Part shown: positions 12,634-13,888 of the stretch, in pieces
Layout: each line of letters begins with the position of its first letter
How positions within the stretch are numbered: the first letter of the stretch is position 1
Assembly (NCBI GenBank): GCA_004431415.1
Contig: QPMI01000068.1
Span: 1 to 64,000, forward strand
Reading direction: 5' to 3'
Source: Cyanophora paradoxa CCMP329
Taxonomy: Eukaryota; Plantae; Glaucophyta
Length of the DNA stretch: 64,000 bases
Notes under the pieces: generated by a model
What the model saw: the letters and a program-made list of their open reading frames with translations, nothing else
Databases searched by the model: none
Told to the model about the DNA's origin: nothing
Position numbers and translations under genes: made by a program

Positions 12634-13888
12634 TCAGGAGGCCGTGGGCTCCGTCGCAGGCTCGCCGCGGATGCGGCGGGCGAGCTGAATGTCCTGGACG
12701 GACCGGAGCGCGCGGGCAGGGGTCGGGCGCAGGAGGCTTGGTGGTGGCGGGGGCCGCACCTTGGGCTGGATGGTGATGCGCCTGCGGTGGATCGCCAAGA
12801 GGTTCGCCTCCTCAAAGTGCTTGATGAGTTGCTGCGCAGAGGGGGCAAAGCGAGCGTGGGAAGCGCGCCCTCGGGGTCAAGGGGGCGGGGCCGGGGCGCA
12901 AACGCGGCGGACCATCTCGCTGGCCTCGCGCAGGCACTCGATGGCCTCGCGCGTCCAGCGGAGCTCGATCTTGGGTCTGCCCCCTCCTCGTTCTTCTCCT
13001 TGGCAATCTCGCTCCCGATCTCCTGCACCTGCGCCGCGCGGGCGCGAAAACGACGTGGCGGGGAGCGCGGGGGTGCGGCGGGAAAAGGGGGCGGGAAGGC
13101 GGACGAGGCGCTTAAAGGGCGCGTAGGGGATCAGCGGGTTCGTCGTCTGCGTCCGCGGTCTCAGTCGAACGATCCCGGGGCCACGGGGCCCGGGCCCCGC
13201 GGCGGCGGGCCGGCGGCAGCGCGGCGGCAGCGCCCACCTTTTGGTACTTGCGGATCTGCGATGCGACGCGGGATCAGGCGGCGCGCAGGCGCAGAGTCGG
13301 CTCAGCTACGGTAGGCTCGGCATGCATGCGCACCTCGCGGAGCGCCACCGTGCCTTTCCGTCGCCGCCGCCGCCCGACGACCGGCGCGGTACGCGCGTCA
13401 GGAATCGGTGAGAGCGAGCGAGAGAGAGAGAGAGGCCGGAGCGGCGCGCGCGGGCGGGGTGCATCTATAGCTAGCTATAGCTGCGTGTATGCGTGCATGC
13501 ATGCATGTGGCGTAGCTTGCATTGAGCTAGAGCGCGGCCGCGGGGCGGGGAGGGAGACGACCAGGGCGGTAGCGGTGCGGCTTCTTCACCTGCGGTGCGC
13601 ATGCGCACACGTTAGACGCGCCGGCCGCGGGATGCGGCGCCGGCGCTCCGGCTGGGACGCGACGCGCGCTGCGACATCACGCACCCCGCCTGCCGCCGGA
13701 GCCGAGCGGCGGGCCGCCTTGGTAGCCAGCTTCTTGCGCGGCGCCTTGCCGCCGGTGCTCTTCTTTGCCTGCGAGAGACGGCGGACATGAGACACGATGC
13801 ATATGATCGGCTGCAAGGCGGACGACGAGGACGAGGAGAAGAGCGCGGGGCGGGCGCTCTCGCTCACCGTCTGCTTGATGCGGGCCAT
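12634..13888 (-). CDS. Histone H3 variant, 9 exons: 13888-13868, 13768-13685, 13589-13562, 13353-13334, 13255-13238, 13146-13105, 13028-12913, 12831-12760, 12693-12634
   Basis: Eight GT-AG introns give [153 protein letters not shown]; exon 7 is 1 nt short at a homopolymer near 12975. Confidence 0.92.

What the first reader, a model, noticed from the sequence alone, without database searches (positions are those of the whole stretch)
12634..13888. Hybrid histone H3 variant: near-canonical tail with K27R on a CenH3-like fold
Seen: the tail keeps K4, K9, S10, K14 and K36 but has T3I, R8K, Q19K and K27R (KAARRSAP). The fold has Q68K, F84W (LRWT), T107A, a loop 1 about 10 aa longer, and a C-terminal extension. 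Established: loss of Q68, F84 and T107 plus a longer loop 1 are the usual CenH3 diagnostics, but CenH3 tails are normally unalignable to H3; K27 is the PRC2 target. Inference: an unusual CenH3, or a Polycomb-immune H3 variant, sitting beside a satellite and a virus graveyard.
Basis: partly seen in the sequence, partly recalled or inferred. Interest (0 to 1): 0.75.

Follow-up and report, generated by a model that had tools for sequence, protein, structure and literature searches.

The report
Intron-throttled hybrid histone H3 in Cyanophora
A transcribed gene of the alga Cyanophora paradoxa encodes a histone H3 with a nearly normal tail on a core bearing centromere-histone hallmarks, but its assembled RNA keeps one intron and would then yield only the tail, so it is likely a multi-copy, non-centromeric variant made in small amounts rather than the centromere histone.

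Summary
Observation confirmed: nine-exon H3 gene (minus strand) with T3I, R8K, Q19K, K27R, Q68K, F84W, T107A, loop 1 +11 and a 6-residue C-terminal extension. The exon-7 frameshift is an assembly error (+1 base in 4 of 4 covering runs). The host is Cyanophora paradoxa; four gene models there encode this protein, and two further paralogs form a clade with it (100/98). New here: seven coding introns have RNA support, but intron 3 (208 nt, non-consensus at both ends) is retained in contigs of three studies, and its spliced junction appears in 0 of 6 runs; retention stops the frame after 55 codons. A spliced minority is not excluded. The centromeric reading is weakened: the tail is not divergent, the tree does not place it with CenH3-like rows (unresolved, AU p=0.28), and a published survey lists a more conventional Cyanophora CenH3 candidate. 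The Polycomb reading is weak: two surveys find no E(z)/EED/Su(z)12 in this species. The 'satellite' is a 6-copy array; virus-like genes start 15 kb away. The scan has already noted this H3 family on other pieces of this genome. Verdict: real lineage-specific H3 variant, probably non-centromeric, with leaky splicing.

The parts
13868..13888 (-). Exon 1 (start codon, H3 residues 1-6); transcribed 5' leader reaches at least 14066
   Evidence: joint 13767/13867 in X15 and X16
13685..13768 (-). Exon 2 (tail 7-34, holds R8K, K9, S10, K14, Q19K, K27R)
   Evidence: RNA contigs X15, X16
13590..13684 (-). Intron 2, 95 nt, partly retained; splicing inferred from contig ends only
   Evidence: Expected bubble geometry (151-nt retained branch, ends 13682 and 13590) matches X15 and X16 exactly; the joint itself is not listed
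13562..13589 (-).
13354..13561 (-). Intron 3, 208 nt: retained in RNA contigs; in-frame stop at 13529-13527; donor lacks +5 G, acceptor AAG, contains microsatellite-like repeats
   Evidence: X15, X16, X20 bridge its 3' end from spliced exons; no junction in 6 runs; outlier against 8 other introns
13334..13353 (-). Exon 4 (20 nt, start of the alpha-N helix)
   Evidence: Joint 13148/13327 with exon-5 letters between in X15, X16, X18, X20
13238..13255 (-). Exon 5 (18-nt micro-exon)
   Evidence: Letters between the joint sides; joint 13146/13238 in X17
13105..13146 (-). Exon 6 (alpha 1, Q68K)
13029..13104 (-). Intron 6, 76 nt, partly retained; spliced RNA carries a silent base difference from the window at 13026
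   Evidence: Joint reported as 13024/13101 in X15, X20; matching loose ends in X16, X18; retained contigs in X15, X16, X18, X19
12913..13028 (-). Exon 7 (long loop 1, F84W, start of alpha 2); the window lacks one base at 12972/12973 (assembly error)
   Evidence: table 4: 4 of 4 runs; P0001 has the in-frame product, P0002 is the same gene modelled around the missing base
12760..12831 (-). Exon 8 (alpha 2, T107A, loop 2)
   Evidence: Joints 12831/12913 and 12692/12759 in X15, X20
12634..12693 (-). Exon 9 (alpha 3, 6-residue extension, stop)
12499..12586 (-). Spliced 88-nt intron in the 3' untranslated region
   Evidence: Joint 12498/12587, CT..AC, in X15
11710..12300 (.). Six-copy array of a 91-98-bp repeat downstream of the gene; five more copies at 1-500 and a related inverted 71-bp array at 11085-11389
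   Evidence: 12 matches, 0 expected by chance

Best explanation
This is a transcribed member of a Cyanophora-specific family of divergent histone H3 genes, present in several near-identical gene models, whose full-length product likely acts as a low-abundance, non-centromeric nucleosomal variant because a weak third intron is kept in the assembled RNA. Shown: the coding frame is intact, seven of eight coding introns have RNA support, and intron 3 is retained in contigs from three studies. Inferred: retained transcripts stop after 55 codons (H3 residues 1-44 plus 10 others) and, with six spliced junctions downstream, would be decay targets or give only a tail peptide; full-length protein would come from a spliced minority. 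Predicted: that protein folds as a complete histone fold with a longer alpha-1/loop-1, pairs with H4, keeps K4, K9, S10, K14 and K36 for ordinary marks, cannot be acetylated or methylated at residue 27, and has a changed alpha-2 chaperone surface, so it would be deposited by a route other than bulk H3, most plausibly on repeat- or element-derived DNA. The CenH3-like residues are a family trait that arose on the long stem of this family, by convergence or from an old CenH3-related fold; the data do not tell which.
For: Frameshift is an error. Joints for introns 1, 4, 5, 6, 7, 8 and bubble geometry for intron 2. Intron 3: unbroken 321-nt contigs through it in X15 and X16 (expected 319 if retained, 111 if spliced), X20 runs 44 nt into it from spliced exons; exon 4 is 20 nt, so 31-letter words link spliced intron 4 and retained intron 3 on single reads; contig depth 14.8 against 15.9 and 18.9 for flanking exon contigs in X15 (depth is a poor measure). 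Intron 3 is the only one of 9 with an AAG acceptor and no +5 G, and is over twice as long. Three EukProt accessions share the identical protein P0001 and a fourth (P0002) is this locus. Paralogs P0131 and P0326 are C. paradoxa, share W84, lost Q68/T107 and loop 1 +10 and form one clade with P0001, 100/98; K27 varies within it (K in P0131). Model with 69-row alignment: complete fold, pLDDT 71-93 per block over residues 51-150, best structural matches are nucleosomal H3 chains. A separate conventional CenH3 candidate is published. Precedent for amplified H3-like genes matching neither H3 nor CenH3: PMC3538342 passages.
Against: No protein, localisation or ChIP evidence. No spliced junction 3 was seen at all, so a full-length product is unproven. 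RNA cannot be tied to this copy: the spliced intron-6 junction differs from the window at 13026. No element boundary or mobility gene was shown around the gene; the TFIIB-like and Walker-A-like neighbours are by-eye only (searches found nothing), so 'on element DNA' rests on unreviewed scan notes about paralogs. The four gene models could include redundant contigs. The fold shares short motifs with seed-plant CenH3s in the van Hooff file (IP[FY]APF, RWT.EA, by eye), Cnp1 is the top fold-only hit by 1.3 bits, and the AU test does not reject grouping with CenH3-like rows (p=0.278).
Confidence: 0.5

Rival explanations
1. A decaying copy: both splice sites of intron 3 have degenerated, the gene is still transcribed but makes no useful histone, and the identical copies are recent passive duplicates.
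For: Junction 3 in 0 of 6 RNA-like runs; introns 2, 5 and 6 are also partly retained; non-consensus donor and acceptor and an intron swollen by simple repeats; neighbourhood of duplicated fragments and mobile DNA; changes at otherwise near-invariant sites such as L61P, Q93R, Y99Q, D106E; inactivated amplified H3 copies are known (PMC6710886 abstract).
Against: No stop or real frameshift in nine exons; short terminal branch (0.12 against 1.07 and 0.51 for paralogs); most odd residues are shared with paralogs; no missense variant listed in two DNA runs (few variants in all); contigs can lose minority paths of about a third (X15 and X17, one sample, differ at intron 5).
Confidence: 0.25
2. A true centromeric histone (alone or with its paralogs) that carries an H3-type tail, expressed at low level through the weak intron.
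For: All residue and loop diagnostics cited in PMC4359364 are met except the tail; top fold-only PDB hit is fission-yeast Cnp1; plant-CenH3-like motifs; AU test does not reject; only 14 of 377 scored proteins lose all three residues, four of them the CenH3-like rows.
Against: Tail 31 of 37 identical to H3; own clade with a long stem, not with CenH3-like rows; identity over the core is 55-58% to CenH3-like rows and 57-63% to H3 rows; a candidate with a conventional short unalignable tail and A68 exists (CPAR010062, a partial model fused to an MCM-like gene); several dispersed identical gene models are unusual for CenH3 (own knowledge); flanking repeat arrays are only about 0.6 kb.
Confidence: 0.14
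3. The retained transcript is the point: it makes a 55-residue free H3-tail peptide that acts as a decoy for tail readers and writers, with splicing of intron 3 switching to the full histone.
For: Retention is specific and reproducible across three studies while neighbouring introns are spliced; the stop falls just after the tail; the retained intron is the longest in the gene, whereas retained introns in this species tend to be shorter (PMC6142364 passage); an unreviewed scan note reports H3-tail-mimic genes in this genome (e1-10581617).
Against: A stop 193 nt above a junction, with six junctions downstream, is a typical nonsense-mediated-decay target (own knowledge); no translation evidence; no conservation of the intron or the 10 added residues could be tested.
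Confidence: 0.08
4. A Polycomb-immune H3: K27R was selected to keep chromatin free of PRC2 silencing.
For: R27 is real and shared with P0326; canonical C. paradoxa H3 keeps K27 (PMC5405695 section 17); anti-H3K27me3 blots gave a band.
Against: No E(z), ESC or Su(z)12 in C. paradoxa (PMC5405695 table; none of 4 CYAPAR entries lies in the EED, EZH or SUZ12 files of PMC10638273); the blot failed its peptide-competition control and was called inconclusive; paralog P0131 keeps K27 and loses K9; 8 of 377 scored proteins have R27 on an H3-like tail.
Confidence: 0.03

Closest known systems
CenH3 / CENP-A / Cse4 / Cnp1 (criteria from PMC4359364 passages; functional class per PMC3380720 passages)
   Same: Longer loop 1; no Q68, F84 (W), T107; fold-only score to Cnp1 equal to that to H3.
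   Different: Tail alignable and 84% identical to H3; loop insertion much longer than in the CenH3-like rows compared (+11 against +1 to +3); separate clade; several identical gene models; another CenH3 candidate in the species; localisation unknown.
H3L of the hAT transduplication in Pyrenophora tritici-repentis (PMC3538342 passages) and amplified H3 copies of Pseudocercospora (PMC6710886 abstract and passages)
   Same: Several near-identical, transcribed copies of an H3-like gene that matches neither H3 nor CenH3; function unknown.
   Different: Four gene models rather than tens; eight introns; no transposase or terminal repeats shown around this copy; CenH3-type residues; one retained intron.
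K27-resistant plant H3 variants H3.10 and H3.15 (recalled, not from a call; only the name H3.10 appears)
   Same: Residue 27 cannot carry the usual mark.
   Different: Those have a near-canonical fold and act in PRC2-bearing plants; here the fold is strongly diverged and PRC2 core genes were not found in the host.
Single viral H3 histones (DSLPV1, xenomavirus, NCLDV MAGs; PMC9145170 passages)
   Same: Lone H3 with a largely intact tail near virus-like DNA.
   Different: Host-like GC-rich gene with spliceosomal introns; core only about 60% identical to H3; none of 23 full viral H3 loci aligned has W84, best identity 64%.
Cyanophora paralogs P0131 (tig00020801_g13931) and P0326 (tig00020553_g10531)
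   Same: One clade, 100/98; W84, long loop 1, R93, altered alpha 2; 72% and 68% identical.
   Different: P0131 keeps K27 and has K9R; P0326 has a more diverged tail; neither has the C-terminal extension; their splicing was not examined.

Membership tests
CenH3 | Loop 1 longer than canonical H3 | tested here: met
   +11 residues
CenH3 | Absence of Q68, F84 and T107 | tested here: met
   K68, W84, A107; 14 of 377 scored proteins share the triple loss, 6 of them with an H3-like tail, though P0368/P0373/P0379 may be assembly chimeras or H3-tailed CenH3s
CenH3 | Highly divergent N-terminal tail, not alignable to H3 | tested here: not met
   31 of 37 identical to P0101, 30 of 37 to P0097
CenH3 | Groups with known CenH3s in a histone-fold phylogeny | tested here: inconclusive
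CenH3 | Localises to centromeres and recruits the kinetochore (the functional definition) | not testable with these tools
   Needs tagging, antibody or ChIP
Polycomb-immune H3 variant | Residue 27 cannot be methylated as lysine | tested here: met
   R27
Polycomb-immune H3 variant | Host has PRC2 and H3K27me3 | tested here: not met
   Literature check only: no E(z)/ESC/Su(z)12; mark inconclusive; zeros in PMC9018016 are uninformative (BUSCO 0% for that data set); genome not available to search
Transposon-amplified H3-like genes (H3L type) | Several near-identical copies | tested here: met
   Three accessions with identical protein plus this locus; redundant contigs not excluded
Transposon-amplified H3-like genes (H3L type) | Lies inside a bounded element with its own mobility gene | tested here: inconclusive
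   No Pfam hit in 17 flanking frames; no terminal repeats bracketing the gene among those shown; other copies' flanks not available
Viral single H3 | Encoded by a virus genome, close viral relatives | tested here: not met
   Eight introns, host-like GC; 24 viral loci, best 64% over full length, none family-like; virus-like genes 15 kb away behind a LINE
Histone H3 family (nucleosome-competent fold) | Complete alpha-N, alpha 1-3 with conserved H113, D123, L126, R131 | tested here: met
   Alignment, model, Foldseek to H3 chains, rmsd about 2.1-2.5 A over the core; depends on junction 3 being spliced

The most novel reading that the evidence does not exclude
Intron 3 is a switch in a multi-copy histone gene: retained, the transcript makes a free H3-tail peptide that soaks up chromatin readers and writers; spliced, it makes an H3-tailed histone with a CenH3-type core that builds special, possibly kinetochore-attracting, chromatin on the repeated DNA that carries it.
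Probability: 0.08. Interest if true: 0.8.

Novelty: new variant of a known kind. Interest (0 to 1): 0.42.

Why it matters
The family shows that the residue and loop rules used to call CenH3 from sequence can be met by an H3-tailed, multi-copy variant in a species that also has a conventional candidate, so it is a natural test of whether those fold features are enough for centromere targeting. Glaucophytes are the least studied branch of Archaeplastida for chromatin, and this one appears to lack core PRC2. The retained intron gives a cheap, decisive experiment (junction reads, polysomes, histone mass spectrometry) that separates a throttled variant, a dead copy and a tail-decoy switch. As it stands no function is shown, and the scan has already flagged the family on other contigs.

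Tried and rejected
Real frameshift or silent gene: rejected. P0002 as a second paralog: rejected, it is this gene with intron 6 read through; the representative search run with it returned ordinary H3s and P0131. Alternative in-frame acceptors at 13470 and 13464, which would give a typical 91-97-nt intron and an Arg-rich CenH3-like stretch before alpha-N: not supported, contigs cover 13511-13561 unspliced and hold 107 letters across the masked repeat 13404-13510; the masked letters were not compared. Fold-only protein from an ATG inside intron 3: five ATGs give 7-54 codons, none reaches the fold. DNA contamination as the cause of retention: unlikely, introns 1, 4, 7, 8 are spliced out in the same contigs. 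No listed holder was on record as RNA; the runs are called RNA here because they show spliced joints. X17 lists no record over exons 1-4, X18-X20 none over exons 1-2: no evidence either way (a filter removes records, human-like histone sequence among them). Contig depth is higher over the gene body than over its 3' flank (186 vs 40 in X1; 531 vs 182-485 in X2) but is not a copy number. Relatives outside Cyanophora: none closer than ordinary H3 among the 120 listed of 346, 120 listed of 7724, 24 viral loci and 80 kept of 558 metagenome stretches (scan cut at its limit). ESM Atlas: homologue P0131 gave only 'Histone H3' clusters. Single-sequence model was poor (pLDDT 61). TFIIB-like and Walker-A-like flanking frames: no support. 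No whole genome was held, so the full H3 inventory, PRC2 search and flanks of other copies could not be done. Paper searches for a description of this family (listings only) and for the residue diagnostics found none; bioRxiv supplements were closed and most subscription papers are not searched. 10.1101/2024.09.22.614159 (passages) does not mention Cyanophora.

Full report
What is there. The minus strand of 12634-13888 holds a nine-exon histone H3 gene (Pfam Histone E=3.5e-29). The tail is 31 of 37 identical to a stored H3.3-like protein, while alpha 1 (12 of 22) and loop 1-alpha 2 (18 of 36) are not, so the hybrid pattern is real.

The frameshift. One G is put in behind 12972 in 4 of 4 runs covering it, two DNA and two RNA-like; six of seven single-base insertions checked nearby are G at G runs. 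The window, not the gene, is wrong. The database holds the in-frame product P0001 (154 aa) under three Cyanophora paradoxa accessions and a fourth model, P0002, that reads through intron 6 exactly as the window's frame does and is therefore taken to be this locus. So four gene models share the protein; whether all four are separate loci could not be checked because no genome is held.

Splicing. Six RNA-like runs from four studies were laid (X15, X20; X16-X19). Joints are listed for intron 1 (X15, X16), introns 4 and 5 (X15, X16, X18, X20; X17 by a joint and a loose end), intron 6 (X15, X20; loose ends in X16, X18), introns 7 and 8 (X15, X20, the only two laid there) and a 3' UTR intron (X15). 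Intron 2's joint is not listed, but contig ends and the 151-nt retained branch in X15 and X16 equal the geometry expected if it is partly spliced. Intron 3 is different: no junction in 0 of 6 runs showing one, and unbroken 321-nt contigs run from spliced exons 6-5-4 through the whole intron into exon 3 in X15 and X16 (319 expected if retained, 111 if spliced). X20 runs 44 nt into the intron and has a second contig across the rest; X18 runs 29 nt in (under the tool's 31-letter rule); X19 holds a 167-nt piece; X17 lists nothing there. Thus 3 of 6 runs, from three studies, bridge the retained boundary. Limits: 107 letters of the intron are masked; a filter can drop human-like records, which a spliced H3 junction might be; X15 and X17 (one sample) differ at intron 5, so paths of about a third can vanish; introns 2, 5 and 6 are also partly retained; and the spliced intron-6 junction differs from the window by a silent base at 13026, where DNA run X2 also branches, so the RNA speaks for the family of copies, not provably this one. 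Intron 3 is an outlier in sequence too: 208 nt against 65-99, AAG against CAG in 8 of 8 others, no +5 G in either candidate donor against 8 of 8 others, branch-point-like word 48 nt from the AG against 22-27 in the four others that have one. Retention gives a 55-codon frame ending at 13529; no internal ATG reaches the fold. PMC6142364 (passages) says that retained introns in this species tend to be shorter than excluded ones, so this one runs against the trend.

Family and phylogeny. Two more C. paradoxa proteins, P0131 and P0326, share W84, loss of Q68 and T107 and a loop 1 ten residues longer. With P0001 they form one clade on a long stem, 100/98, in a tree of 47 rows and 92 columns (3 Cyanophora, 4 CenH3-like by name or features, 15 other divergent, 15 H3, 10 viral, chosen from stored hits; P0002 and most near-identical H3s left out); 34 of 44 inner branches are open and the bootstrap had not settled. 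Holding them with the four CenH3-like rows is not rejected (AU p=0.278). The fold alone scores 66.6 bits against fission-yeast Cnp1 and 65.3 to 62 against H3 chains. No closer relative was seen outside the species. A model from a 69-row alignment is a complete histone fold with alpha 1 lengthened to residues 66-86, matching nucleosomal H3 chains.

Is it CenH3? PMC4359364 (passages) names the criteria: long loop 1, lost Q/F/T, divergent tail, phylogenetic grouping. Two are met, the tail is not, the tree is unresolved, and CenH3 is in the end a functional class (PMC3380720 passages). van Hooff et al. 2017 (PMC5579357; passages and supplementary file 3 part 111) put five C. paradoxa sequences in their CenpA group; by eye none is this protein, and CPAR010062 has a short unalignable tail and A68, though its model is partial and fused to an MCM-like sequence. 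That survey used the 2010 gene set, which may have lacked this gene. In favour of CenH3 ancestry, short motifs in alpha 1 and alpha 2 resemble seed-plant entries of the same file (by eye). I do not file it as CenH3.

Is it Polycomb-immune? PMC5405695 (passages and section 17) found no E(z), ESC or Su(z)12 in C. paradoxa, with a caveat on annotation, and called its H3K27me3 blot inconclusive. In PMC10638273's ortholog files (supplement search only) the code CYAPAR, which I read as this species, occurs 4 times, in the PCGF, RBBP and RING files and not in EED, EZH or SUZ12. PMC9018016's zeros rest on a data set with BUSCO 0% and count for nothing. K27R is also not a family constant. It would remove acetylation or mono-methylation at 27 (own knowledge), but immunity to PRC2 has no shown target.

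Surroundings. The 91-bp repeat has six copies at 11710-12300 and five at 1-500; the second array may continue beyond the window. A LINE (endonuclease, RT, RNase H) fills 18496-29114, and AT-rich genes with A32 ATPase, integrase, SF1 helicase and Dam hits start at 29050; their long open frames do not look like a graveyard, and nothing ties them to the histone. Scan notes (unreviewed) describe H3 genes of this type on other pieces of this genome, some inside 34-48-kb repeated elements with TFIIB and primase-helicase genes; frames at 2270-6433 here look TFIIB-like and Walker-A-like by eye, but no search supported that.

Mechanism and verdict. Most likely (0.5) a non-centromeric, lineage-specific H3 variant whose output is held low by a weak intron; shown are the intact frame, transcription, family membership and retention; inferred are a spliced minority, nucleosome entry and targeting to repeat or element DNA. 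Rivals: dead copy 0.25, H3-tailed CenH3 0.14, tail-decoy switch 0.08, Polycomb immunity 0.03. Nearest precedent: amplified H3L genes of Pyrenophora (PMC3538342 passages; PMC6710886 abstract). Listings from four searches showed no paper on this family. New variant of a known kind; interest 0.42.

Noticed in passing
window 18496-29114 (-): Apparently intact LINE-type retrotransposon: 1222-aa frame without a family hit, followed by a 2338-aa frame with endonuclease, reverse transcriptase and RNase H.
   Followed up: partly
window 29050-64000: AT-rich (37-50% GC) virus-like genes with long frames: three integrase-like, three or four SF1-helicase-like, A32 packaging ATPase, Dam methylase, AdoMet decarboxylase, endonuclease VII; probably several nested polinton-like or virophage-like insertions; the ATPase found no relative in IMG/VR by pattern scan.
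   Followed up: partly
window 2270-4900 (+): Three related copies of a frame that starts with a Cys/His zinc-ribbon-like motif, one followed by a stretch that looks like a TFIIB cyclin repeat by eye; broken by frame changes that may be assembly errors; no database support.
   Followed up: partly
window 5747-6433 (+): Frame with a Walker-A-like motif, preceded by a TATA-like word; no hit in Pfam, PHROGs, PDB or IMG/VR.
   Followed up: partly
window 11085-11389 and 11710-12300: Two different tandem repeats (71 bp and 91 bp) share a 45-bp core in opposite orientation and face each other across about 320 bp; could be an element end or origin.
   Followed up: no
window 14393-14680 and 17060-17362: Direct repeat of about 290 bp, 2.68 kb apart, beginning with a 14-bp tandem unit; LTR-like bracket around a non-coding-looking stretch with internal direct and inverted repeats.
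   Followed up: no
P0368, P0373, P0379 (unnamed ENA proteins): Canonical H3 tail (34-35 of 37) on a fold that looks like a typical CenH3 (A68, W84, S107, loop 1 +5); either assembly chimeras or real H3-tailed CenH3s in another lineage.
   Followed up: no
L013-L018, L020 and L016 (IMG/VR): Viral H3s with an insertion just after K27-S28 (L013, L018, L020 types) or a long loop 1 (L016).
   Followed up: no
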